This document shows, piece by piece, positions 1,869-62,136 of a stretch of DNA of 64,000 nucleotides. The position numbers were made by a program, and so were the translations under genes. Position 1 is the stretch's first letter. Each line of letters starts with the position of its first letter. Under the pieces are notes generated by a model. The model did not search any database, had not been told where the DNA came from, and worked only from the letters and a program-made list of their open reading frames with translations. The DNA lies in NCBI RefSeq assembly GCF_058153355.1, contig NZ_CM177019.1. One strand, written 5' to 3'.

Positions 1869-2975
<1,107 letters not shown>

Positions 2976-5248: not shown

Positions 5249-5574
5249 TGGCAAAGAACCGTAGCCGTCGTCTGCGTAAAAAAATGCACATCGACGAATT
5301 CCAGGAATTAGGATTTTCGGTGGCATGGCGATTCCCGGAAGGTACATCGGAAGAACAGATTGATAAAACCGTTGATGACTTTATTAACGAGGTTATCGAA
5401 CCGAACAAACTGGCCTTTGACGGCAGCGGATATCTGGCCTGGGAAGGTCTGATCTGCATGCAGGAAATCGGCAAATGCACCGAAGAACATCAGGCGATTG
5501 TGCGTAAGTGGCTGGAAGAGCGCAAACTGGATGAGGTACGCACCAGCGAACTTTTCGACGTTTGGTGGGACTAA
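5248..5574 (+). CDS. yggL: DUF469 protein YggL
   Basis: 108 aa from [18 protein letters not shown]; ATG overlaps trmB stop (taATGg). Confidence 0.85.
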   Translation: MAKNRSRRLRKKMHIDEFQELGFSVAWRFPEGTSEEQIDKTVDDFINEVIEPNKLAFDGSGYLAWEGLICMQEIGKCTEEHQAIVRKWLEERKLDEVRTSELFDVWWD

Positions 5575-29805: not shown

Positions 29806-29907
<102 letters not shown>

Positions 29908-49146: not shown

Positions 49147-50142
49147 TTAATCAAAATATTGCGTCTGGATAAATTCACTAAGCTGCCGCAGGCCGGTGCG
49201 CGGTGAGAGCGTATTATTTTTGACCGCTAAAAGCGTCTGGCGGTAATAGCGATCGAAATCTTCATTCGCGAACAGGTGATTCAGTACTTCTTCTTCGGTC
49301 TGCTTACGCAGCCATTCCACCGATTGTTGTTGCCGCACTTGCTGTAAACGACCACTGGCAGTTAGCGCGGTTTTGAAGTCGATGATGGCGTGCCAGATCT
49401 CATCGATTCCACGTTTTTCCAGTGCGCTACAAGTCAGAACTCGTGGCTGCCATTCGTCGTATTTACGTCGCAGAATATGCAGGGCACTCTCGTACATATG
49501 CCGGGCAATGGCGACATTGGTATGGTTATCGCCATCGTCTTTGTTGATAACGATCAGATCTGCCACTTCCATCAGTCCCTTTTTAATCCCCTGCAGATCA
49601 TCGCCGCCACCGGCAATTTGCAACGAGATAAAACAGTCCACCATGCGGGCGACTTCCGTTTCCGACTGTCCGACGCCAACCGTTTCGACAATCACTACGT
49701 CATAACCCGCCGCTTCGCATAACAGCATTAATTCCCGCGCTCGCTGACTGGCACCGCCCAGATGGCTGGAGGATGGTACCGGGCGAATAAACGCCGCCTC
49801 GGCACGCGCCAGGTCATTCATGCGGGTTTTATCCCCGAAAATGCTACCGCCAGTGACCGGGCTGCTGGGATCGACCGCAATAACCGCAACCTTTAGTCCC
49901 TCACGAATCAACAACATGCCAAAGGCTCCAAGAAAGGTACTTTTCCCCGCGCCGGGTGTGCCGGTAACACCCAGTCGCAGGGCGTTACCACAGAACGGCA
50001 TAATGGCATCAAGCAGTTGCGTACTTAGCGCCTGATGACGCGGGTGACGGCTTTCCACCAGCGTCATGGCCTGGGCGAGCGTGGCACGCTCACCCTGACG
50101 TAAGCGGCGAATACTTTCTGCCAGCGTGGCTTCATTAATCAT
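49147..50142 (-). CDS. argK: Methylmalonyl-CoA mutase-associated GTPase (MeaB-like)
   Basis: 331 aa; P-loop GTPGAGKST. Confidence 0.9.
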
Positions 50143-52279
50143 GATGCTGGCTTATCAGATTCAGTACGTCGCGCACGCTGTCGAGCATAGGCGTACCTGG
50201 ACCATAAATCGCCGCCACGCCGCGCTCCTGCAGGAAGGCGTAATCCTGCGGTGGAATGACGCCACCCGCGACCACGAAAATATCTTCGCGATTCCATTTC
50301 TTCAGCGCTTCGACCAGTTCCGGGATCAGCGTTTTATGACCGGCAGCCAGTGAAGATGCGCCCACTATGTGAACGTCGTTTTCTACTGCCAGGCGGGCGA
50401 TCTCTTCAGGTGTAGAGAACATCGGGCTTAAATCTACGTCGAAACCGAGATCGGAATAGGCGCTGGCGATCACTTTCGCGCCGCGATCGTGCCCATCCTG
50501 GCCCATTTTGGCGATCAGAATGCGCGGGCGACGACCATTGTCGGCAAGGAACTGCTCCGTTTGCGCAACAATGGCATCGAACTCGGAGGCCGATTTCTCA
50601 GACTGATGATAGCTTTGCGCAATCACGCCGGTAACACACTGGCTTGGCACCAGATAACGGTCGAAAGCGGCTTCCAGCGCATCGGAAATTTCACCCAGGG
50701 TGGCGCGAACGCGAGCGGCATTAACAGCGGCAGCCAGCAGGTTTTCGTTGTGCTGTGCGGCGTGAGTCAGGGCGTTCAACGCGGCGGTTACGGCGGCATC
50801 ATCACGGGTGGCGCGAATGCGTTCCAGCGAAGCAATTTGCTCGTTACGCACCATCACGTTGTCGATCTCAAGTACATCGGTTTCGTCTTCGTGATCCAGT
50901 TTGTACTTGTTGACACCAACGATGACACGCTTGCCCTGGTCGATCAACGACTGTTCGCGCGCGGAGGCCTCTTCGATCATTCGTTTTGGCAGACCTGCTT
51001 CGATCGCTTTCGCCATGCCACCGGCTTCGTCGATCTGTTGGATAATGGCTCTGGCTTGTTTGACGATTTGATCGGTCAGCGATTCAACGTAATAGGATCC
51101 GGCCAGTGGATCGACGGTGCGGCAGAGTTCTGATTCTTCCTGAATGATGATCTGGGTATTGCGGGCAATGCGTGCTGAGAAATCGGTTGGCAAACCCAGC
51201 GCTTCATCAAAGGCGTTGGTATGCAATGACTGAGTACCGCCCAGCGTTGCAGCCAGTGCTTCAATGGTGGTGCGGATAACGTTGTTATACGGATCCTGTT
51301 CAGTCAGGCTCCAGCCTGAGGTCTGGCAGTGGGTACGCAGCGCCAGTGATTTCGGATCCTGTGCGCCAAATCCACTGACCGCTTCGCTCCATAAATAACG
51401 TGCCGCACGCAACATGGCGACGTTCATAAACAGATCCATGCCAATGCCGAAGAAAAACGACAGGCGAGGAGCAAAGTCATCAATTTTCAGCCCAGCGGAG
51501 ATTGCTGCTTTGATGTACTCAATCCCATCAGCGAGCGTAAATGCTACCTGCTGCACGCAGTTGGCACCCGCTTCACCCATATGGTAACCGCTGATACTGA
51601 TGGTATTAAATCGCGGCATGTTGCCGGAACACCAGGCGATGATGTCTGCGATAATACGCATTGACGGTTTTGGCGGGTAAATATAGGTGTTGCGGCAAAG
51701 ATACTCTTTGAGGATATCGTTCTGAATGGTGCCTGTCAGTTTATCGGGTGTAACACCTTGCTCTTCTGCGGCGACAATATAAAACGCCAGTACTGGTAGT
51801 ACTGCGCCATTCATGGTCATCGAAACCGACATTTTATCCAGCGGGATCTGGTCGAACAGGACTTTCATATCTTCCACGGTGTCGATGGCGACGCCCGCTT
51901 TGCCGACGTCACCCGCAACGCGCGGGTTATCGGAGTCGTAGCCACGGTGGGTGGCAAGGTCAAACGCAACGGAAAGACCTTTTTGCCCGGCGGCCAGGTT
52001 ACGGCGATAAAAAGCGTTAGACTCTTTTGCTGTCGAGAAACCGGCATACTGACGGATAGTCCACGGTTGGGCGGTATACATAGTGGCACGCGGGCCACGA
52101 ACGTAGGGTGGCAAACCAGGAAGGGTACCGGTCACTTCCAGATTATCGAGATCGGCTTCAGTATACAGCGGCTTGATGGCGATCCCTTCTGCGGTTTGCT
52201 GAACCAGCGAGTCGACAGTTTTCTCCCGACGGCTCAATTCCTTGTTGGCAAGCTGTTGCCACTCCTGCACGTTAGACAT
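50135..52279 (-). CDS. scpA: Methylmalonyl-CoA mutase (B12-dependent)
   Basis: 714 aa from [20 protein letters not shown]; overlaps argK start by 8 nt. Confidence 0.9.
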
Positions 52280-52482
52280 TATTTGCTCCATAAAACGCAA
52301 TCAAAATGAGGGTATTTGCGCTTACGGTGAGCTTTTTACGTGGGTTTGTCGCCAGCAAAAAAAATGCATTCAGACGTCGTTTTTTGCCGCCTGAGATTTG
52401 TCTATTTTGTGATGTGATTCAAGGAATACAAAAAGAACTGGAGGTGATGCCTGGTATGTATTACCAGGCATTATTTGATGGA

Positions 52483-53376
52483 TTATTCCTGACGAAGAAC
52501 TTTGTGACCATAATCGAGCAACGCATCAGTGACTTTACGCATCATGCGGCTTTCAGGAGCAAAGCGGTGCCAGTAGAGCATCCGGCGTTGAAATAGCCCT
52601 GGCGTTAAGTCAATCAGTTCGCCGCTGGCCAGTTCTTTCTCGATTTGCAGATGTGGGATCATACAGCAGGTGGTCCCCTGACGAGCAAGTTGCACGAACG
52701 CTTCTGAAGAATTAACGATATGGCAGGGTACGCTGCCTGGAGGCAGATCAAAGTTTTGCTGCAAAAAGGCCTGGTGCATATCATCAAGATGGTCAAAGGC
52801 GACCACTGGCGCTTTCAGTAATGCCGAACGCGTTACGCCGTTAGGGAAATATTTTTCGGCGAACGGTTTTGAGCTGACGAACAGATAGTCGAGCGCACCG
52901 AGCTTATCGACAAGACAACTCGGTAGCGCCTGATGTTGAATACTCACCGCGCCGACCACTTCGCCGCGACGCAGACGTTCCTGAGTGCGGGTTTCATCTT
53001 CTACCTGCAAGTTGAGGCGGATAGGCGAATCAGCTAACACAGGAGCCAGCGCCGGAAGCAACCACGTCGCCAGACTGTCAGCGTTGACCGCCAGTGAAAG
53101 CAGCAGCGGAGTTGAACCGGTTTGTTCATCGCCCAGCCACTCTTCTTCCAGTAACTCCACCTGGCGTAGCAGTGCCAGCAGTTTTTGCCCTTGTTCCGTC
53201 GGGCGCGGCGGTACGGTACGCACCAACAGCGGCTGCCCGAACATATTTTCCAGTTGCTTAATGCGCTGTGAGACGGCTGATTGTGTAATGCACAGCTTTT
53301 GTGCCGCGCGCTCAAATCCTCGTTCACGTATCACCGCATCCAGTGCCTGTAATGTTCTGTAGTCCGGGCGTTTCAT
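52483..53376 (-). CDS. argP: LysR-family regulator ArgP/IciA
   Basis: 297 aa from [43 protein letters not shown]. Confidence 0.9.
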
Positions 53377-53516
53377 TGCTGTTGTCTGCTCCTGGTAAAT
53401 GCTTTTTCCTGCACTATGACACAATTTTGCGTCAGGTTGCATATACCGAAGCCGTCGGCGGGTACATTTGTATCAGTGGTTAAACACGCAGCTTAAAAGA
53501 TCAGGGATTTGCGCTA

Positions 53517-53747
53517 TTGCATTTCGCTCAGCGAGTTCGCGCCCTGGTTGTGTTGAATGGCGTGGCGTTATTGCCTCAATTTGCCTGTAAACAGGGGCTT
53601 GCCAACGGTGAACTGGTGCGCCTGTTCGCACCGTGGAGCGGCATACCCAGACCGTTGTATGCTTTATTTGCCGGGCGAAAGGGGATGCCCGCCATTGCGC
53701 GATATTTTATGGATGAGTTAACCACGCGGCTTGCCAACGGGGTCTGA
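53517..53747 (+). pseudogene. yqfE: LysR-family regulator C-terminal remnant (yqfE-like)
   Basis: 76-aa ORF resembling a LysR effector-domain C-terminus, no HTH-bearing N-terminus. Confidence 0.4.
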
Positions 53748-53763
53748 ATCGCTTTTTTTGTAT

Positions 53764-53888
53764 ATACTCGTCATACTTCAAGTTGCATGTGCTGCGTCTG
53801 CGTTCGCTCACCCCAGTCACTTACTTCTGTAAGCTCCTGGGGATTCACTCTCTTGTCGCCTCCCTGCAACTCGAATTATTTAGAGTAT
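53764..53888. repeat. ERIC/IRU intergenic repeat upstream of rpiA, inverted relative to 40451..40576
   Basis: Near-identical reverse complement of the pgk–fbaA ERIC. Confidence 0.85.
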
Positions 53889-53925
53889 AATGCGAGTGAA
53901 ATTTCATACCACAGGCGAAACGATC

Positions 53926-54585
53926 ATGACGCAGGATGAATTGAAAAAAGCAGTAGGATGGGCGGCACTTCAGTATGTTCAGCCCGGCACCATTGTTGGT
54001 GTAGGTACAGGTTCCACCGCCGCACACTTTATTGACGCGCTCGGCACGATGAAAGGCCAGATTGAAGGGGCCGTTTCCAGTTCGGATGCGTCCACTGAAA
54101 AACTGAAAAGCCTCGGCATTCACGTTTTTGATCTCAACGAAGTCGACAGCCTTGGCATCTACGTCGACGGTGCAGATGAAATCAACGGCCACATGCAGAT
54201 GATCAAAGGCGGCGGCGCGGCGCTGACCCGTGAAAAAATCATTGCTTCGGTTGCGGAAAAATTTATCTGTATTGCAGACGCTTCTAAGCAGGTTGATATT
54301 CTGGGCAAATTCCCGCTGCCAGTAGAAGTTATCCCGATGGCACGTAGTGCAGTGGCGCGCCAGCTGGTGAAACTGGGCGGTCGTCCGGAATACCGCCAGG
54401 GCGTGGTGACCGATAACGGCAACGTGATCCTCGACGTCCACGGCATGGAAATCCTTGACCCAATAGCGATGGAAAACGCCATAAATGCGATTCCGGGCGT
54501 GGTGACTGTTGGCTTATTTGCTAACCGTGGCGCGGACGTTGCGCTGATTGGCACACCTGACGGTGTCAAAACCATTGTGAAATGA
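53926..54585 (+). CDS. rpiA: Ribose-5-phosphate isomerase A
   Basis: 219 aa from [32 protein letters not shown]. Confidence 0.95.
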
Positions 54586-54840
54586 TCTGACGGGGGAATC
54601 TCCCCCGTTAAAAAAATTCTCTTCGTTAAATTTGGTGACATGTGTCACGTTTTTACCTGGCTATTGTCGATTGCTCTAAATAAATCCTCTAATCCAGCAT
54701 ATTCATCCAAGAAAAACCTTTGCGTGATATTTCCTCAACATCGCGACGCAAACGTTCATATTGCCGCAATATTATTTTTTGATATGTTGAAAGGCGGATG
54801 CAAATCCGCACACAACATTTCAAAAGACAGGATTGGGTAA

Positions 54841-56073
54841 ATGGCAAAGGTATCGCTGGAGAAAGACAAGATTAAGTTTCTGCTGGTAGAAGGCGTGCAC
54901 CAAAAGGCGCTGGAAAGCCTTCGTGCAGCGGGTTACACCAACATCGAATTTCACAAAGGCGCGCTGGATGATGAACAATTAAAAGAATCCATCCGCGATG
55001 CCCACTTCATCGGCCTGCGATCCCGTACCCATCTGACTGAAGACGTGATCAACGCCGCAGAAAAACTGGTCGCTATTGGCTGTTTCTGTATCGGAACAAA
55101 CCAGGTTGATCTGGATGCAGCTGCAAAACGCGGGATCCCGGTATTTAACGCACCGTTCTCTAATACGCGCTCTGTTGCGGAGCTGGTAATTGGCGAACTT
55201 CTGCTGCTATTGCGCGGCGTACCGGAAGCCAACGCTAAAGCGCACCGTGGTGTCTGGAACAAGCTGGCAGCTGGCTCTTTTGAAGCGCGCGGCAAAAAGC
55301 TGGGTATCATCGGCTATGGTCATATTGGTACACAGTTGGGCATTCTGGCTGAATCGCTGGGAATGTATGTTTACTTTTATGATATTGAAAACAAACTGCC
55401 GCTGGGCAACGCCACTCAGGTACAGCATCTTTCTGATCTGCTGAATATGAGCGATGTGGTGAGTTTGCATGTGCCAGAGAATCCGTCCACCAAAAATATG
55501 ATGGGCGCGAAAGAGATTTCACTAATGAAGCCCGGCTCGCTGCTGATTAATGCCTCGCGCGGAACGGTGGTGGATATTCCGGCGCTGTGTGACGCGCTGG
55601 CGAGCAAACACCTGGCAGGTGCGGCAATCGATGTCTTCCCGACGGAACCGGCGACCAACAGCGATCCATTTACCTCTCCGCTGTGTGAATTCGACAACGT
55701 CCTTCTGACGCCACATATTGGCGGTTCGACTCAGGAAGCGCAGGAGAATATCGGCCTGGAAGTTGCGGGTAAATTGATCAAGTATTCTGACAATGGCTCA
55801 ACGCTCTCTGCGGTGAACTTCCCGGAAGTCTCGCTGCCACTGCACGGTGGGCGTCGTCTGATGCACATCCACGAAAACCGTCCGGGCGTGCTAACTGCGC
55901 TCAACAAAATTTTTGCCGAGCAGGGCGTCAACATCGCCGCGCAATATCTGCAAACTTCCGCCCAGATGGGTTATGTAGTTATTGATATTGAAGCCGACGA
56001 AGACGTTGCCGAAAAAGCGCTGCAGGCAATGAAAGCTATTCCGGGTACCATTCGCGCCCGTCTGCTGTACTAA
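54841..56073 (+). CDS. serA: D-3-phosphoglycerate dehydrogenase
   Basis: 410 aa MAKVSLEKDKIKFLLVEGVHQKALESLRAAGYTNIEFHKGALDDEQ. Confidence 0.95.
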   Translation: MAKVSLEKDKIKFLLVEGVHQKALESLRAAGYTNIEFHKGALDDEQLKESIRDAHFIGLRSRTHLTEDVINAAEKLVAIGCFCIGTNQVDLDAAAKRGIPVFNAPFSNTRSVAELVIGELLLLLRGVPEANAKAHRGVWNKLAAGSFEARGKKLGIIGYGHIGTQLGILAESLGMYVYFYDIENKLPLGNATQVQHLSDLLNMSDVVSLHVPENPSTKNMMGAKEISLMKPGSLLINASRGTVVDIPALCDALASKHLAGAAIDVFPTEPATNSDPFTSPLCEFDNVLLTPHIGGSTQEAQENIGLEVAGKLIKYSDNGSTLSAVNFPEVSLPLHGGRRLMHIHENRPGVLTALNKIFAEQGVNIAAQYLQTSAQMGYVVIDIEADEDVAEKALQAMKAIPGTIRARLLY

Positions 56074-56093
56074 ATCCCCTTCTCTGAAAATCA

Positions 56094-56125
56094 ACGGGCA
56101 GGTCACTGACTTGCCCGTTTTTTTA
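56094..56125 (+). terminator. Rho-independent terminator downstream of serA
   Basis: acgggcaggtcactgacttgcccgt + T7. Confidence 0.7.
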
Positions 56126-56239
56126 TCCCTTCTCCACACCGTTGCCGCATTGCGCATTCTACTTTGCGAGTCTGCTCCAGAAAATAAATCAAAGTCAGAT
56201 CAATGCGTTGTGTTTGTTTAATGAGGATTTAGGATGGCG

Positions 56240-56390
56240 AGGCAGCATAGGGCTACAACGGTAAAGCCCTCACCGAAGCGAGGGCTTGAAGGAGAAGGGT
56301 TATGATGCGACTCGTCATCATACTGATTGTACTGTTACTCATAAGTTTCCCAGCTTATTAACAGTCAGTCACAGGGGAGGAGCAATCCTC
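56240..56390 (-). ncRNA. sibC: SibC antisense sRNA (antitoxin to ibsC); boundaries approximate
   Basis: Inferred from known ibs/sib architecture; ends not determinable from sequence. Confidence 0.35.
56302..56361 (+). CDS. ibsC: Type I toxin IbsC (19-aa hydrophobic peptide)
   Basis: MMRLVIILIVLLLISFPAY; expected location between serA and ygfA. Confidence 0.6.
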   Translation: MMRLVIILIVLLLISFPAY

Positions 56391-56461
56391 CCTTACCCTT
56401 ACTCACTAAATTAGGTCAAAGAATCAACGATGTCAATCAGGGCGATGCAGGTGTGTCGCCC

Positions 56462-57010
56462 TCACCACTCCCAGACTTTCGACGGCGTAACTACTGCAGG
56501 AAGTGGAATATCCCACTCTTCAACGGGGAGTTTTTCTACCAACTGACAATCATGCGCATAACCCACCGGTTGCATTTGATAGCGCTGCCAGTTTTGTAAG
56601 GTCCGATCATAAAAACCACCGCCCATTCCCAGGCGCTGACCGTACTCATCAAAGGCGACCAGCGGTGTGATCAACACGTCTAATCGGGAAAGGGGTAGCA
56701 CGTCACGCACATCCAGTTTTGGCTCATGGATCTTCAACCTGTTCATCACCAGTTCGCTTTGCGGATGGTAATTCAGGAACAGCAAATTACCGGCACTAAA
56801 GGGATGCAAAACTGGAAGATATACGCGCTTACCGGCGCGCCAGAGTTGTTCTATGAGTGGCTGGGTGTCGAGTTCGCCATCAAAAGAGAGGAATACAGCG
56901 ACCGTATGCGCCATCACCACCGGGGGATAAGTCATCATCCGGGTAGCAGCTTGTTGACCCATTTCTTGCTGTTGTTTCGGCGTTAACGCACGACGACGTT
57001 GCCGAATCAT
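56462..57010 (-). CDS. ygfA: 5-formyltetrahydrofolate cyclo-ligase
   Basis: 182 aa from MIRQRRRALTPKQQQEMGQ; downstream of ssrS in same orientation. Confidence 0.8.
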   Translation of the reverse strand: MIRQRRRALTPKQQQEMGQQAATRMMTYPPVVMAHTVAVFLSFDGELDTQPLIEQLWRAGKRVYLPVLHPFSAGNLLFLNYHPQSELVMNRLKIHEPKLDVRDVLPLSRLDVLITPLVAFDEYGQRLGMGGGFYDRTLQNWQRYQMQPVGYAHDCQLVEKLPVEEWDIPLPAVVTPSKVWEW

Positions 57011-57082
57011 TTTGCGGATTTCTTGTCGATATAATGTCAGTGGGATTTCTGGTAGTTGCGTCATGGCTGGTGCCAGATAAGA

Positions 57083-57268
57083 AGGGAATCTCCGAGATGC
57101 CGCCGCAGGCTGTAACCCTTGAACCCTTGGTTCAAGGTGAATGTGTCGTCACAGTTTTAAGGCTTCTCGGACGGACCGAGCATGCTCACCAACCGCGGAG
57201 CGCCACATTCTTGTGGTATGAAATATCGGCTCAGGGGACTGGCCCGCTTGCGAACATCTCAGAGAAAT
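57083..57268 (-). ncRNA. ssrS: 6S RNA
   Basis: RC reads atttctctgagatgttcgcaagcgggccagtcccctgagccgatatttcatacc...ggagattccct. Confidence 0.9.
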
Positions 57269-57309
57269 TTTGTCTTCACGGTTACTCTACCACAGTAAAC
57301 CGAAAAGTG

Positions 57310-57705
<396 letters not shown>

Positions 57706-57806
57706 CTATAGCTACCCTGATGAGAAGAGACAAGCCCTTTTCTGGTCCACCAGGGCCCAAAGTGGTAGCATATCATGAATATTCCTCCCTTTGACGACGA
57801 ATGCTT

Positions 57807-58385
57807 ATGTCTATACAGAACGAAATGCCTGGTTACAACGAAATGAACCAGTATCTGAACCAACAAGGGACGGGTCTGACCCCTGCTGAGATGCATGGTT
57901 TAATCAGTGGGATGATATGTGGTGGTAACGATGACAGCTCATGGCTGCCACTGCTTCACGACCTGACGAACGAAGGCATGGCTTTCGGTCATGAGCTGGC
58001 ACAGGCATTGCGCAAAATGCACTCTGCTACCAGCGATGCCCTGCAGGATGACGGCTTCCTTTTTCAGCTTTATCTGCCTGATGGCGATGATGTCAGTGTT
58101 TTCGATCGTGCTGATGCGCTGGCAGGTTGGGTCAATCACTTCCTGCTTGGTCTTGGCGTTACGCAACCGAAGCTGGACAAAGTGACCGGCGAAACCGGTG
58201 AAGCCATCGACGATCTGCGTAACATCGCGCAGCTGGGCTACGACGAAGACGAAGATCAGGAAGAGCTGGAAATGTCGCTTGAAGAGATCATCGAGTACGT
58301 CCGTGTTGCCGCGCTGTTATGCCACGACACCTTTACTCATCCGCAACCGACCGCGCCAGAAGTACAAAAACCGACTCTACACTAA
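57807..58385 (+). CDS. ygfB: UPF0149 protein YgfB
   Basis: 192 aa from [31 protein letters not shown]. Confidence 0.85.
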
Positions 58386-58410
58386 AAACAAAAAACGTAA
58401 GGAGAGTGTT

Positions 58411-59736
58411 ATGAGTGAGATATCCCGGCAAGAATTTCAGCGTCGCCGTCAGGCCCTGGTAGAGCAAATGCAACCCGGCAGCGCCGCGCTGATTTTCGCG
58501 GCACCAGAAGTGACCCGTAGCGCCGACAGCGAATACCCCTATCGTCAGAACAGTGACTTCTGGTACTTCACCGGCTTTAACGAACCGGAAGCGGTGCTGG
58601 TACTGATTAAAAGTGATGACACTCATAACCACAGCGTTTTGTTTAACCGCGTGCGCGACTTGACGGCGGAGATCTGGTTTGGCCGTCGTTTAGGTCAGGA
58701 TGCCGCGCCAGAGAAACTGGGCGTTGACCGCGCACTGGCGTTCAGTGAAATCAATCAGCAACTTTATCAACTGCTTAATGGTCTGGATGTGGTTTACCAC
58801 GCTCAGGGCGAATATGCCTATGCTGATGAAATCGTGAACAGCGCGCTGGAAAAGCTGCGTAAAGGCTCGCGACAAAATCTCACCGCGCCAGCAACGATGA
58901 TCGACTGGCGTCCTGGTGTTCATGAAATGCGCCTGTTCAAATCGCCGGAAGAGATTGCCGTACTTCGCCGCGCGGGTGAAATCACTGCCCTGGCGCATAC
59001 CCGGGCGATGGAAAAATGCCGTCCGGGGATGTTCGAGTACCATCTGGAAGGCGAAATTCACCACGAATTTAACCGCCACGGTGCGCGTTACCCTTCCTAT
59101 AACACCATTGTTGGCAGCGGTGAAAACGGCTGCATTCTGCATTACACCGAAAACGAGTGTGAAATGCGCGACGGCGACCTGGTGCTGATTGATGCTGGTT
59201 GTGAATACAAAGGTTACGCTGGCGATATTACCCGCACCTTCCCGGTTAACGGTAAATTCACTCAGGCTCAGCGTGAAATCTACGACATTGTGCTGGAGTC
59301 TCTTGAAACCAGCTTGCGCCTGTATCGTCCGGGAACGTCCATTCAGGAAGTCACCGGTGAAGTGGTGCGCATCATGGTTAGCGGCCTGGTAAAACTCGGC
59401 ATCCTGAAAGGTGATGTTGATGAACTGATCGCTCAGAACGCCCATCGTCCTTTCTTTATGCATGGCCTTAGCCACTGGTTAGGTCTGGATGTCCATGATG
59501 TTGGTATTTATGGTCAGGATCGCTCGCGCATTCTGGAACCGGGCATGGTACTGACCGTAGAGCCGGGGCTGTACATTGCGCCGGATGCGGATGTACCAGA
59601 ACAATATCGCGGTATCGGCATTCGTATCGAAGACGACATTGTGATTACCGAAACCGGCAATGAAAACCTCACTGCCAGCGTAGTGAAAAAGCCGGAAGAA
59701 ATTGAAGCGTTGATGGCTGCTGCGAGAAAGCAATGA
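58411..59736 (+). CDS. pepP: Xaa-Pro aminopeptidase (aminopeptidase P)
   Basis: 441 aa from MSEISRQEFQRRRQALVEQMQPGSAALIFAAPE; RBS aaggaga. Confidence 0.9.
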   Translation: MSEISRQEFQRRRQALVEQMQPGSAALIFAAPEVTRSADSEYPYRQNSDFWYFTGFNEPEAVLVLIKSDDTHNHSVLFNRVRDLTAEIWFGRRLGQDAAPEKLGVDRALAFSEINQQLYQLLNGLDVVYHAQGEYAYADEIVNSALEKLRKGSRQNLTAPATMIDWRPGVHEMRLFKSPEEIAVLRRAGEITALAHTRAMEKCRPGMFEYHLEGEIHHEFNRHGARYPSYNTIVGSGENGCILHYTENECEMRDGDLVLIDAGCEYKGYAGDITRTFPVNGKFTQAQREIYDIVLESLETSLRLYRPGTSIQEVTGEVVRIMVSGLVKLGILKGDVDELIAQNAHRPFFMHGLSHWLGLDVHDVGIYGQDRSRILEPGMVLTVEPGLYIAPDADVPEQYRGIGIRIEDDIVITETGNENLTASVVKKPEEIEALMAAARKQ

Positions 59737-60911
59737 GCGTAATCATCGTCGGTGGCGGCATGGCGGGCGCGACGCTGGCGCTGGCTATTTCCCGGTTAAG
59801 TCACGGGGCGCTGCCGGTACATTTGATTGAAGCGACTGCGCCAGAGTCACATGCTCATCCGGGCTTTGATGGACGAGCTATTGCGCTGGCGGCGGGTACT
59901 TGTCAGCAACTGGCGCGCATCGGCGTCTGGCAATCTCTGGCTGATTGCGCAACCGCCATCACCAGCGTGCATGTCAGCGATCGTGGTCATGCCGGATTCG
60001 TCACCCTCGCCGCAGAAGATTACCAACTGGCGGCGCTGGGGCAGGTTGTCGAATTGCATAATGTCGGGCAACGGCTGTTTGCATTGCTGCGCAAAGCACC
60101 TGGCGTAACGCTGCATTGTCCGGATCGCGTGGCTAACGTTGCCCGTGCTCAGAGTCACGTTGAAGTGACGCTGGAGAGTGGCAAGACGTTGACGGGGCGT
60201 GTGCTGGTCGCTGCTGATGGCACCCATTCCGCGTTAGCCACCGCGTGCGGTGTTGACTGGCAGCAGGAGCCTTACGAACAACTGGCCGTGATTGCGAACG
60301 TTGCGACTTCCGTTGCGCACGAAGGCCGGGCGTTTGAGCGTTTCACACAATATGGCCCGTTGGCGATGTTGCCGATGTCTGACGGACGCTGTTCGCTGGT
60401 CTGGTGCCATCCACTGGAACGGCGCGAAGAGGTGCTGTCGTGGAGCGACGAGACGTTTTGCCGTGAACTCCAGTCGGCCTTTGGCTGGCGACTTGGGAAA
60501 ATTACCCACGCTGGTAAACGCAGTGCTTACCCGCTGGCGTTAACCCGCGCCGCCAGACCTGTTACCCATCGTACCGTGCTGGTGGGCAATGCGGCGCAAA
60601 CCCTGCACCCGATTGCCGGGCAAGGATTTAACCTCGGTATGCGTGATGTGATGAGCCTTGCGGAAACGCTGACTCAGGCTCAGGCACGTGAAGATGACAT
60701 CGGTGATTACGGCGTATTGTGCCGTTATCAGCAGCGTCGGCAGAGCGATCGCGAAGCAACCATCGGTGTCACGGACAGCCTTGTACATCTTTTTGCTAAC
60801 CGTTGGGCACCGTTGGTTGTCGGGCGCAACCTCGGGCTGATGACGATGGAATTATTCACCCCAGCACGCGATGTGCTGGCGCAGCGCACCCTCGGTTGGG
60901 TGGCGCGTTAA
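59733..60911 (+). CDS. ubiH: 2-octaprenyl-6-methoxyphenol hydroxylase
   Basis: 392 aa MSVIIVGGGMAGATLALAIS (FAD GGGxxG); overlaps pepP stop. Confidence 0.9.
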   Translation: MSVIIVGGGMAGATLALAISRLSHGALPVHLIEATAPESHAHPGFDGRAIALAAGTCQQLARIGVWQSLADCATAITSVHVSDRGHAGFVTLAAEDYQLAALGQVVELHNVGQRLFALLRKAPGVTLHCPDRVANVARAQSHVEVTLESGKTLTGRVLVAADGTHSALATACGVDWQQEPYEQLAVIANVATSVAHEGRAFERFTQYGPLAMLPMSDGRCSLVWCHPLERREEVLSWSDETFCRELQSAFGWRLGKITHAGKRSAYPLALTRAARPVTHRTVLVGNAAQTLHPIAGQGFNLGMRDVMSLAETLTQAQAREDDIGDYGVLCRYQQRRQSDREATIGVTDSLVHLFANRWAPLVVGRNLGLMTMELFTPARDVLAQRTLGWVAR

Positions 60912-60933
60912 AGGCGGCTTTAAGGAATAAACA

Positions 60934-62136
60934 ATGCAAAGTGTTGATGTAGCCATTGTTGGCGGCGGCATGGTGGGGCTGGCGGTTGCCTGCGGCTTGC
61001 AGGGCAGCGGCTTACGCGTTGCCGTACTGGAGCAGCGCGTACCGGAACCTCTGGCGGCGGATGCACCACCACAACTGCGCGTTTCGGCTATCAATGCCGC
61101 CAGCGAAAAATTACTCACCCGTCTTGGCGTCTGGCAGGACATTCTCTCTCGTAGGGCCAGCTGTTATCACGGTATGGAAGTGTGGGACAAAGACAGCTTT
61201 GGTCACATTTCGTTTGACGATCAAAGCATGGGCTATAGCCATCTTGGGCATATCGTTGAAAATTCAGTCATTCACTACGCGCTGTGGAACAAAGCACAGC
61301 AGTCCTCAGATATCAGCCTGCTAGCCCCTGCAGAATTACAGCAAGTCGCCTGGGGAGAGAACGAAACCTTCCTGACGCTGAAAGACGGCAGCATGTTAAC
61401 GGCGCGTCTGGTAATTGGCGCAGACGGCGCTAATTCCTGGTTGCGCAACAAAGCCGATATTCCGCTGACTTTCTGGGATTATCTGCATCACGCGCTGGTG
61501 GCGACCATTCGCACGGAAGAACCGCATGATGCGGTGGCGCGACAGGTTTTCCATGGCGAAGGCATTCTGGCCTTTTTGCCGCTTAGCGATCCGCATCTTT
61601 GCTCAATTGTCTGGTCACTGTCGCCAGAGGAAGCACAGCGGATGCAGCAGGCAGGTGAAGACGAATTTAATCGCGAGTTAAATATCGCTTTTGATAATCG
61701 CCTGGGCTTATGCAAGGTTGAGAGTGAACGCCTGGTGTTCCCGCTGACTGGGCGTTATGCGCGCCAGTTTGCCGCGCACCGTCTGGCGCTGGTGGGCGAC
61801 GCCGCACATACCATTCACCCGTTGGCGGGGCAGGGGGTGAATCTCGGCTTTATGGATGCTGCAGAGCTGATTGCTGAACTGAAACGGTTGCATCGTCAGG
61901 GTAAAGACATCGGGCAGTACATTTACCTGCGTCGCTATGAGCGTAGCCGCAAGCACAGTGCGGCGCTGATGCTGGCAGGTATGCAGGGATTCCGCGATCT
62001 GTTTTCCGGGGCTAATCCGGCGAAAAAACTGCTGCGTGATATTGGCCTGAAACTGGCCGACACGCTTCCTGGCGTTAAACCACAACTTATCCGTCAGGCA
62101 ATGGGATTAAACGATTTGCCTGAATGGCTGCGCTAA
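60934..62136 (+). CDS. ubiI: 2-octaprenylphenol hydroxylase (VisC/UbiI)
   Basis: 400 aa MQSVDVAIVGGGMVGLAVACGLQGSGLRVAVLEQ. Confidence 0.9.
   Translation: MQSVDVAIVGGGMVGLAVACGLQGSGLRVAVLEQRVPEPLAADAPPQLRVSAINAASEKLLTRLGVWQDILSRRASCYHGMEVWDKDSFGHISFDDQSMGYSHLGHIVENSVIHYALWNKAQQSSDISLLAPAELQQVAWGENETFLTLKDGSMLTARLVIGADGANSWLRNKADIPLTFWDYLHHALVATIRTEEPHDAVARQVFHGEGILAFLPLSDPHLCSIVWSLSPEEAQRMQQAGEDEFNRELNIAFDNRLGLCKVESERLVFPLTGRYARQFAAHRLALVGDAAHTIHPLAGQGVNLGFMDAAELIAELKRLHRQGKDIGQYIYLRRYERSRKHSAALMLAGMQGFRDLFSGANPAKKLLRDIGLKLADTLPGVKPQLIRQAMGLNDLPEWLR

What the first reader, a model, noticed from the sequence alone, without database searches (positions are those of the whole stretch)
56240..56390. 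ibsC/sibC type I toxin–antitoxin locus between serA and ygfA
A 19-codon ORF (56302..56361) encoding the hydrophobic peptide MMRLVIILIVLLLISFPAY with a good RBS (ggagaag) matches the Ibs toxin family. Its antisense partner SibC is expected on the opposite strand. This is a known element but is easily missed by ORF-length filters.
Basis: established knowledge. Interest (0 to 1): 0.3.

Follow-up and report, generated by a model that had tools for sequence, protein, structure and literature searches.

The report
Known ibsC/sibC toxin–antitoxin locus
This is the well-known E. coli ibsC/sibC type I toxin–antitoxin pair (a 19-residue membrane toxin gene overlapped by an antisense small RNA) in its usual place between serA and fau/ygfA, carrying the commonest natural allele, so it is ordinary.

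Summary
Window 56302..56361 (+) encodes MMRLVIILIVLLLISFPAY, behind an AAGGAG Shine-Dalgarno sequence 7 nt upstream. The peptide matches Pfam Ibs_toxin over the whole profile (47.3 bits, cut-off 27). The opposite strand matches Rfam SIB_RNA (140.5 bits, gathering 56). The flanks are serA (54841..56073, +) and fau/ygfA (56462..57064, -), as in K-12.

The peptide differs from K-12 IbsC by one residue, S17P. It is identical to RefSeq WP_071525914.1, which is named IbsC. A 41-mer carrying the Pro codon occurs in 2790 of 5426 complete E. coli genomes. The K-12 Ser version occurs in 2165. This codon is SibC nt 49-51, in the loop of target-recognition domain 1, a known variable specificity site. Cis-encoding keeps the two RNAs complementary whatever the codon is.

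It omits the first 10 nt of SibC (56391..56400) and the SibC promoter (56408..56436).

Expression and toxicity were not tested here and are inferred from published K-12 work. Verdict: already known, low interest.

The parts
54841..56073 (+). serA (phosphoglycerate dehydrogenase), upstream flanking gene (context)
   Evidence: 410-aa ORF. The same gene is annotated at the syntenic position in E. coli A30 and K-12.
56093..56119 (+). serA intrinsic terminator hairpin followed by a T-run (context; separates serA transcription from ibsC)
   Evidence: Terminator scan: 12-pair stem followed by TTTTTTTA.
56208..56235 (+). Putative ibsC promoter: -35 TTGTGT (56208..56213), 16-nt spacer, -10 TAGGAT (56230..56235; K-12 has TACGAT)
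   Evidence: Hexamers read from the sequence. They are placed 6 nt upstream of the start site transferred from Han et al. 2010. This is inferred: the strict consensus scan did not report it.
56242..56400 (+). ibsC mRNA (159 nt), coordinates transferred from K-12
   Evidence: Han et al. 2010 describe a 159-nt mRNA with an 18-nt 5' overhang beyond the SibC 3' end. Their G50, G51 and G53 fall on the GGAG of the SD here, and their SibC C107UCCUUC113 is reproduced. The predicted fold has z = -4.56 and leaves the SD unpaired.
56289..56294 (+). Shine-Dalgarno AAGGAG, 7 nt before the ATG; target of SibC TRD2
   Evidence: Sequence; Han et al. 2010.
56302..56361 (+). ibsC ORF, 19 codons plus stop: MMRLVIILIVLLLISFPAY (GRAVY 2.4)
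   Evidence: Translation. Pfam Ibs_toxin 47.3 bits. Identical to WP_071525914.1 'toxin IbsC'. Aligns to K-12 b4665.
56260..56400 (-). SibC antisense antitoxin RNA, 141 nt (5' end at 56400, 3' end at 56260); covers the whole ibsC SD and ORF
   Evidence: Coordinates transferred from K-12 sibC b4446 through the alignment. 136 of 141 nt identical to K-12 SibC. Rfam SIB_RNA 140.5 bits. Fold -54.7 kcal/mol, z = -4.79. 8 pairs show compensatory changes across the Sib paralogues.
56408..56436 (-). SibC promoter: -35 TTGACA (56436..56431), 17-nt spacer, -10 TAATTT (56413..56408), start 7 nt downstream at 56400
   Evidence: Sequence. Identical to K-12 over this stretch. Included in the Rfam model match. 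The strict scan missed it because the -10 matches only 3 of 6 positions.
56333..56355 (-). SibC target-recognition domain 1 (nt +46..+68, P5 loop); nt 49-51 = UGG here and GCU in K-12; pairs within the ibsC ORF at codon 17
   Evidence: Domain limits from Han et al. 2010. Sequence. nt 48-55 are predicted to form a loop.
56286..56302 (-). SibC target-recognition domain 2 (nt +99..+115, contains the anti-SD CUCCUUC); identical to K-12
   Evidence: Han et al. 2010. Sequence. nt 107-113 are predicted to be single-stranded.
56264..56287 (-). SibC 3' terminator hairpin AAGCCCUC-GCUUCGGU-GAGGGCUU
   Evidence: Fold. Compensatory CG/UA changes in this stem among SibA-E.
56462..57064 (-). fau (= ygfA, 5-formyltetrahydrofolate cyclo-ligase), downstream flanking gene (context)
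   Evidence: 200-aa ORF. Annotated fau at the syntenic position.

Best explanation
This is the chromosomal ibsC/sibC type I toxin-antitoxin module of an E. coli-like genome. The + strand carries a short mRNA of about 159 nt (56242..56400) encoding IbsC, a 19-residue, very hydrophobic peptide. When made in excess, IbsC inserts into the inner membrane and depolarises it. The - strand carries SibC, a 141-nt RNA (56400->56260) transcribed from a promoter with a consensus -35 box. SibC is fully complementary to the ibsC ribosome-binding site and coding sequence. It first contacts the mRNA through two independent exposed segments. The TRD1 loop pairs within the ORF at codon 17. The single-stranded TRD2 anti-SD pairs at the ribosome-binding site. 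Pairing then spreads, translation is blocked and the duplex is degraded, so the toxin is normally not made. What is shown here is the sequence anatomy, the membership of both families, the orthology to K-12 and the predicted RNA structures. What is inferred from K-12 experiments is transcription of both strands, repression, the degradation of the mRNA after pairing and toxicity.
For: The ORF and peptide are as described. The peptide has a full-length Pfam Ibs_toxin match at 47.3 bits against a cut-off of 27 and is identical to RefSeq IbsC WP_071525914.1. The antisense strand matches Rfam SIB_RNA at 140.5 bits against 56. The spacer aligns end to end with K-12, where sibC (b4446) and ibsC (b4665) are annotated, with serA and fau flanking in both. 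SibC is 96.5% identical to K-12 SibC and 68-83% identical to the other four paralogues. The SibC promoter, TRD2 and terminator are identical to K-12. The predicted SibC fold reproduces the published architecture: P1, P5 loop at nt 48-55, unpaired 107-113 and a terminator, with z = -4.79. Eight pairs carry compensatory changes across the paralogues. All five K-12 paralogues and eight E. coli alleles keep an intact 18-19-codon hydrophobic ORF despite nucleotide divergence. The mechanism comes from Han et al. 2010 (PMC2943612) and the review PMC8309996. The locus is present in 5422-5425 of 5426 complete E. coli genomes.
Against: Nothing contradicts this explanation. Several caveats apply. No expression or toxicity data exist for this particular sequence. 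The -10 of the putative ibsC promoter differs from all eight E. coli alleles examined (TAGGAT against TACGAT), and the strict promoter scan reported neither promoter. The S17P allele itself has not, to my knowledge, been tested for toxicity. However, K-12 IbsE, annotated as a 'toxic peptide', also has Pro at position 17.
Confidence: 0.96

Rival explanations
1. The locus is a decayed or silenced copy. SibC is intact, but the toxin side is no longer expressed or no longer toxic, because of the lineage-specific changes in the ibsC promoter and leader and the S17P change.
For: Nine of the 11 differences from strain A30 in 56200..56440 cluster in 56216..56256, which is the ibsC promoter and 5' leader. 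One of them changes the -10 hexamer from TACGAT to TAGGAT. The review notes that C-terminal residues 6-19 matter for IbsC toxicity.
Against: The -10 keeps T1, A2 and T6. The start codon, SD, reading frame and stop codon are intact. The 41-mer carrying the Pro17 codon is in 2790 of 5426 complete E. coli genomes, more than the K-12 Ser17 41-mer (2165), so it is not a private lesion. IbsB and IbsE naturally carry Pro at the equivalent position, and IbsE is annotated as toxic. The promoter/leader segment also varies among ordinary E. coli alleles.
Confidence: 0.03
2. Only the small RNA is functional. The 19-codon ORF is an incidental reading frame on the strand opposite a regulatory sRNA that has other, trans targets.
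For: ORFs of this length are abundant by chance, with 561 in the window. Sib RNAs were first described simply as abundant intergenic RNAs.
Against: The ORF, its SD, its length and its hydrophobic character are all kept in five paralogues that are only 68-83% identical at the nucleotide level. The Pfam family match has E 1.8e-12. Toxicity of IbsC and its repression by SibC have been shown experimentally in K-12.
Confidence: 0.01

Closest known systems
ibsC/sibC of E. coli K-12 MG1655 (b4665 / b4446)
   Same: It sits in the same position between serA and fau(ygfA), with the same orientation of all parts. The mRNA and sRNA boundaries transfer base for base. The SibC promoter, TRD2/anti-SD and terminator are identical. 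SibC is identical at 136 of 141 nt and the peptide at 18 of 19 residues.
   Different: Codon 17 is CCA (Pro) instead of AGC (Ser), so SibC nt 49-51 are UGG instead of GCU in the TRD1 loop. There is one synonymous change in Leu4 (CTT to CTC at 56313) and one change 3' of the stop codon (56371). Several changes lie in the ibsC promoter and 5' leader, including TACGAT to TAGGAT in the -10.
RefSeq IbsC WP_071525914.1 (e.g. E. coli A30, FDAARGOS_1297)
   Same: The 19-aa peptide is identical and lies in the same serA-fau spacer. A 41-mer spanning the Pro17 codon is found in 2790 of 5426 complete E. coli genomes.
   Different: The best nucleotide identity to the window across the 382-nt spacer is only 97.1%. 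The window has private substitutions at 56216, 56232, 56255-56256 and 56313 relative to all eight E. coli alleles compared.
Paralogous pairs ibsA/sibA, ibsB/sibB, ibsD/sibD, ibsE/sibE of K-12
   Same: They have the same architecture: an 18-19-aa hydrophobic ORF fully overlapped by a ~140-nt antisense RNA, with the same consensus RNA fold. IbsB and IbsE also have Pro at the position corresponding to residue 17.
   Different: They lie at other chromosomal sites, as tandem pairs yegL-mdtA and yqiK-hldE. SibC here is only 68-83% identical to them, and the TRD1 and TRD2 sequences differ.

Membership tests
Ibs toxin (Pfam PF13956, type I toxin) | 18-19-residue hydrophobic peptide matching the family profile above its curated cut-off | tested here: met
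   47.3 bits against a cut-off of 27, E 1.8e-12, profile positions 1-19 of 19. GRAVY 2.4. No NCBIfam HMM hit, but PGAP names the identical peptide IbsC.
Ibs toxin (Pfam PF13956, type I toxin) | ORF with its own SD and start codon, lying entirely inside and antisense to a Sib RNA gene | tested here: met
   AAGGAG, 7 nt, then ATG. The ORF 56302..56361 lies inside SibC 56260..56400 on the opposite strand.
Ibs toxin (Pfam PF13956, type I toxin) | Overexpression causes growth arrest or death with membrane depolarisation | not testable with these tools
   Shown for K-12 IbsC (review PMC8309996). Inferred for this S17P allele.
Sib antitoxin RNA (Rfam RF00113) | Covariance-model score above the gathering threshold over the full model | tested here: met
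   140.5 bits against 56, model positions 1-147 of 147, E 5.4e-29, - strand 56436..56286.
Sib antitoxin RNA (Rfam RF00113) | Independent ~140-nt transcription unit with its own promoter and terminator | tested here: met
   At the sequence level only. TTGACA-17-TAATTT lies 7 nt upstream of the K-12 +1, and the terminator hairpin is at 56264..56287. All of these are identical to K-12. Transcription itself was not tested.
Sib antitoxin RNA (Rfam RF00113) | Conserved secondary structure exposing TRD1 (P5 loop) and TRD2 (single-stranded anti-SD) | tested here: met
   In the MFE fold, nt 48-55 form a loop and nt 107-113 are unpaired, with z = -4.79. The consensus fold of 7 Sib sequences has 41 pairs, 8 with compensatory changes. 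Domain definitions are from Han et al. 2010.
Sib antitoxin RNA (Rfam RF00113) | Represses the cognate ibs mRNA | not testable with these tools
   Shown for K-12 SibC/ibsC. Here complementarity is perfect because the pair is cis-encoded.
Orthologue of the C copy (ibsC/sibC) rather than A, B, D or E | Single copy in the serA-fau(ygfA) spacer, and closest in sequence to K-12 SibC | tested here: met
   Synteny rpiA-serA-[ibsC/sibC]-fau-ssrS-zapA. 96.5% identical to SibC against 68.5-82.6% to the others. There is only one SIB_RNA hit in the 64-kb window.

The most novel reading that the evidence does not exclude
The most novel reading not excluded concerns variation in ibsC/sibC within the E. coli population. 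Two things vary: the triplet at toxin codon 17, which is also the SibC TRD1 loop (Pro/CCA in about 51% of genomes, Ser/AGC in about 40%), and the ibsC promoter and 5' leader, which is hypervariable and carries this lineage's private changes. The reading is that this variation reflects ongoing selection on sRNA-mRNA specificity (avoiding or allowing cross-talk with the SibD/E and SibA/B paralogues) and on toxin expression level, so that alleles differ functionally between lineages.
Probability: 0.1. Interest if true: 0.25.

Novelty: already known. Interest (0 to 1): 0.06.

Why it matters
It matters little beyond correct annotation. Tiny toxin ORFs and their antisense RNAs are dropped by ORF-length filters. 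PGAP-annotated genomes list the ibsC CDS but not the sibC RNA, so flagging the pair is useful housekeeping. The one mildly interesting point is that the toxin residue distinguishing this allele from K-12 is encoded by exactly the three nucleotides that Han et al. mutated to retarget SibC. That triplet is dimorphic across E. coli.

Tried and rejected
1. The NCBIfam scan of the peptide gave no hit. The family evidence rests on Pfam and on the identical RefSeq protein.

2. The strict sigma-70 consensus scan of 56050..56500 found no promoter. The SibC -10 (TAATTT) and the ibsC -35 (TTGTGT) fall below its thresholds. The promoters were therefore placed by transfer from K-12 and the literature, and by reading the hexamers directly.

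3. I tried to identify the source organism with an exact window-specific 45-mer against one genome per species. It found nothing. I did not use the second scan, because a collection with one genome per species cannot resolve a within-species lineage.

4. Fozo et al. 2008 (PMC2597788, PMID 18710431) and Mok et al. 2010 (PMC3009890) are not held in the library. Their results are cited only through Han et al. 2010 and the review PMC8309996.

5. I considered and rejected a chance ORF, an sRNA-only locus and a decayed copy (see the rival explanations).

6. I looked for a second tandem Sib copy in the spacer, as at the A/B and D/E loci. There is only one Rfam hit in the window.

Full report
**Observation**

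Window 56302..56361 on the + strand translates to MMRLVIILIVLLLISFPAY followed by a stop codon. An AAGGAG Shine-Dalgarno sequence lies at 56289..56294, 7 nt before the ATG.

A 19-codon ORF means nothing on its own. The window contains 561 ATG ORFs of at least 19 codons. The family matches are what count:
- With one upstream codon added to reach the tool's 20-residue minimum, the peptide matches Pfam PF13956 (Ibs_toxin) over all 19 profile positions. The score is 47.3 bits against a curated cut-off of 27, E 1.8e-12.
- The opposite strand matches Rfam RF00113 (SIB_RNA) over the full model. The score is 140.5 bits against a gathering score of 56, E 5.4e-29, at 56436..56286.

**Identity and anatomy**

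The gene order around the locus is rpiA, serA (54841..56073, +), the spacer, fau/ygfA (56462..57064, -), 6S RNA (57085..57268, -) and zapA. This is the K-12 order in reverse orientation. In K-12 the spacer is annotated with sibC (b4446) and ibsC (b4665).

The spacer aligns without internal gaps to K-12 and to strain A30.

SibC here is identical to K-12 SibC at 136 of 141 nt. It is only 68.5-82.6% identical to SibA, B, D and E. Only one SIB_RNA hit occurs in the 64-kb window. This is therefore the C copy.

The SibC transcription signals are identical to K-12:
- -35 TTGACA at 56436..56431
- a 17-nt spacer
- -10 TAATTT at 56413..56408
- the start 7 nt downstream, at 56400

The strict consensus scan did not flag this promoter, because the -10 matches only 3 of 6 positions.

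Han et al. 2010 (PMC2943612) defined the ibsC mRNA as 159 nt, with an 18-nt 5' overhang beyond the SibC 3' end. That maps it to 56242..56400. The transfer can be checked internally. Their ibsC G50, G51 and G53 fall on the GGAG of the SD, and their SibC C107UCCUUC113 is reproduced exactly at 56294..56288. A plausible ibsC promoter sits just upstream: TTGTGT, 16 nt, then TAGGAT at 56208..56235. This promoter is inferred.

**Structure**

SibC is predicted to fold at -54.7 kcal/mol, z = -4.79 against shuffles. The fold matches the published architecture:
- a closing P1 stem (nt 1-6 with 101-106)
- a P5 hairpin whose loop is nt 48-55
- an unpaired stretch at nt 107-113
- a terminator hairpin (56264..56287)

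A consensus fold of the window, two E. coli SibC alleles and K-12 SibA, B, D and E gives 41 pairs. Eight of them have compensatory double changes, mostly in the terminator and P5 stems. The ibsC mRNA also folds well (z = -4.56) and leaves the SD unpaired.

**Mechanism**

This part is established for K-12 and inferred here. SibC has two independent target-recognition domains. TRD1 (nt +46..+68, P5 loop; window 56355..56333) pairs inside the ORF. TRD2 (nt +99..+115, anti-SD; window 56302..56286) pairs at the translation-initiation region. Pairing spreads from these contacts, and repression leads to degradation of the ibsC mRNA; in vitro, RNase III cleaves the SibC–ibsC duplex. IbsC is a helical membrane peptide. 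Its overproduction depolarises the membrane within minutes and kills the cell. SibC transcription also has a sigma-S component (PMC4447067).

**How this copy differs from K-12**

- The peptide has Pro instead of Ser at residue 17 (CCA against AGC).
- There is one synonymous change in Leu4 (CTT to CTC at 56313).
- There is one change just after the stop codon (56371).
- There is a cluster of changes in 56216..56256, the ibsC promoter and the 5' leader that SibC does not cover. One of them changes the -10 from TACGAT to TAGGAT.

Codon 17 corresponds to SibC nt 49-51. This is the very triplet (G49CU51) that Han et al. replaced to retarget TRD1 to ibsD. Here it is UGG. Because the pair is cis-encoded, complementarity is kept automatically.

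The change is not novel:
- The identical peptide is RefSeq WP_071525914.1, named IbsC.
- A 41-mer centred on the CCA codon is found in 2790 of 5426 complete E. coli genomes. The AGC (K-12) version is found in 2165.
- K-12 IbsB and IbsE also carry Pro at the equivalent position, and IbsE is annotated as a toxic peptide.
- The locus as a whole is present in 5422-5425 of 5426 genomes.

**Rivals**

A decayed toxin side, an sRNA-only locus and a chance ORF were considered and are unlikely. The ORF, its SD and its hydrophobic character are kept across paralogues that are only 68-83% identical at the nucleotide level. The Pro17 allele is common. The essential positions of the -10 are retained.

**Verdict**

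Both the observation and the interpretation are confirmed. The element is already known and ordinary. Expression and toxicity of this exact allele remain untested.

Noticed in passing
window 57085..57268 (-): 6S RNA (ssrS), Rfam RF00013 at 138.1 bits, full length, between zapA and fau as in K-12.
   Followed up: partly
window 29843..29886 (+): Match to Rfam RF02751 ES036 (CssrF) sRNA just above its gathering score (40.4 against 37.6 bits, E 1e-4).
   Followed up: no
window 50000..62000, and 56080..56461: No complete E. coli RefSeq genome is very close to the window. The best identity is 97.1% in the serA-fau spacer and 97.7-98.5% over 12 kb, among 5,426 genomes. A window-specific 45-mer is absent from one-genome-per-species representatives. 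The source looks like a divergent, poorly sampled E. coli-like lineage.
   Followed up: partly
window 56216..56256 (+): Nine of the 11 differences from strain A30 within 56200..56440 cluster in this 41-nt stretch, which is the putative ibsC promoter plus the 18-nt 5' leader not covered by SibC. Only 2 fall in the 141 nt overlapped by SibC. The same stretch also varies among E. coli alleles (E24377A, U13A, EC42405). It is unexplained, and might tune toxin expression.
   Followed up: partly
window 56350..56352 (ibsC codon 17 = SibC nt 49-51): This triplet is dimorphic in E. coli. The CCA/Pro 41-mer is in 2790 genomes and the AGC/Ser 41-mer in 2165, out of 5426. Minor alleles such as CCG/Pro, V5A, V5I and F16L were seen among sampled genomes. 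It coincides with the TRD1 specificity determinant of Han et al. 2010.
   Followed up: partly
L001 (E. coli A30) 2501..2882, and other PGAP-annotated loci L005-L010: PGAP-annotated genomes list the ibsC CDS, sometimes only as 'Ibs family toxin'. They carry no sibC ncRNA feature, although ssrS is annotated. Only the K-12 record carries sibC.
   Followed up: no
window 56462..57064 (-): The fau/ygfA ORF is 200 aa here, as in the PGAP genomes (603 bp). The K-12 record annotates a shorter, 549-bp CDS. This is a start-codon annotation discrepancy, not a sequence difference that I examined.
   Followed up: no
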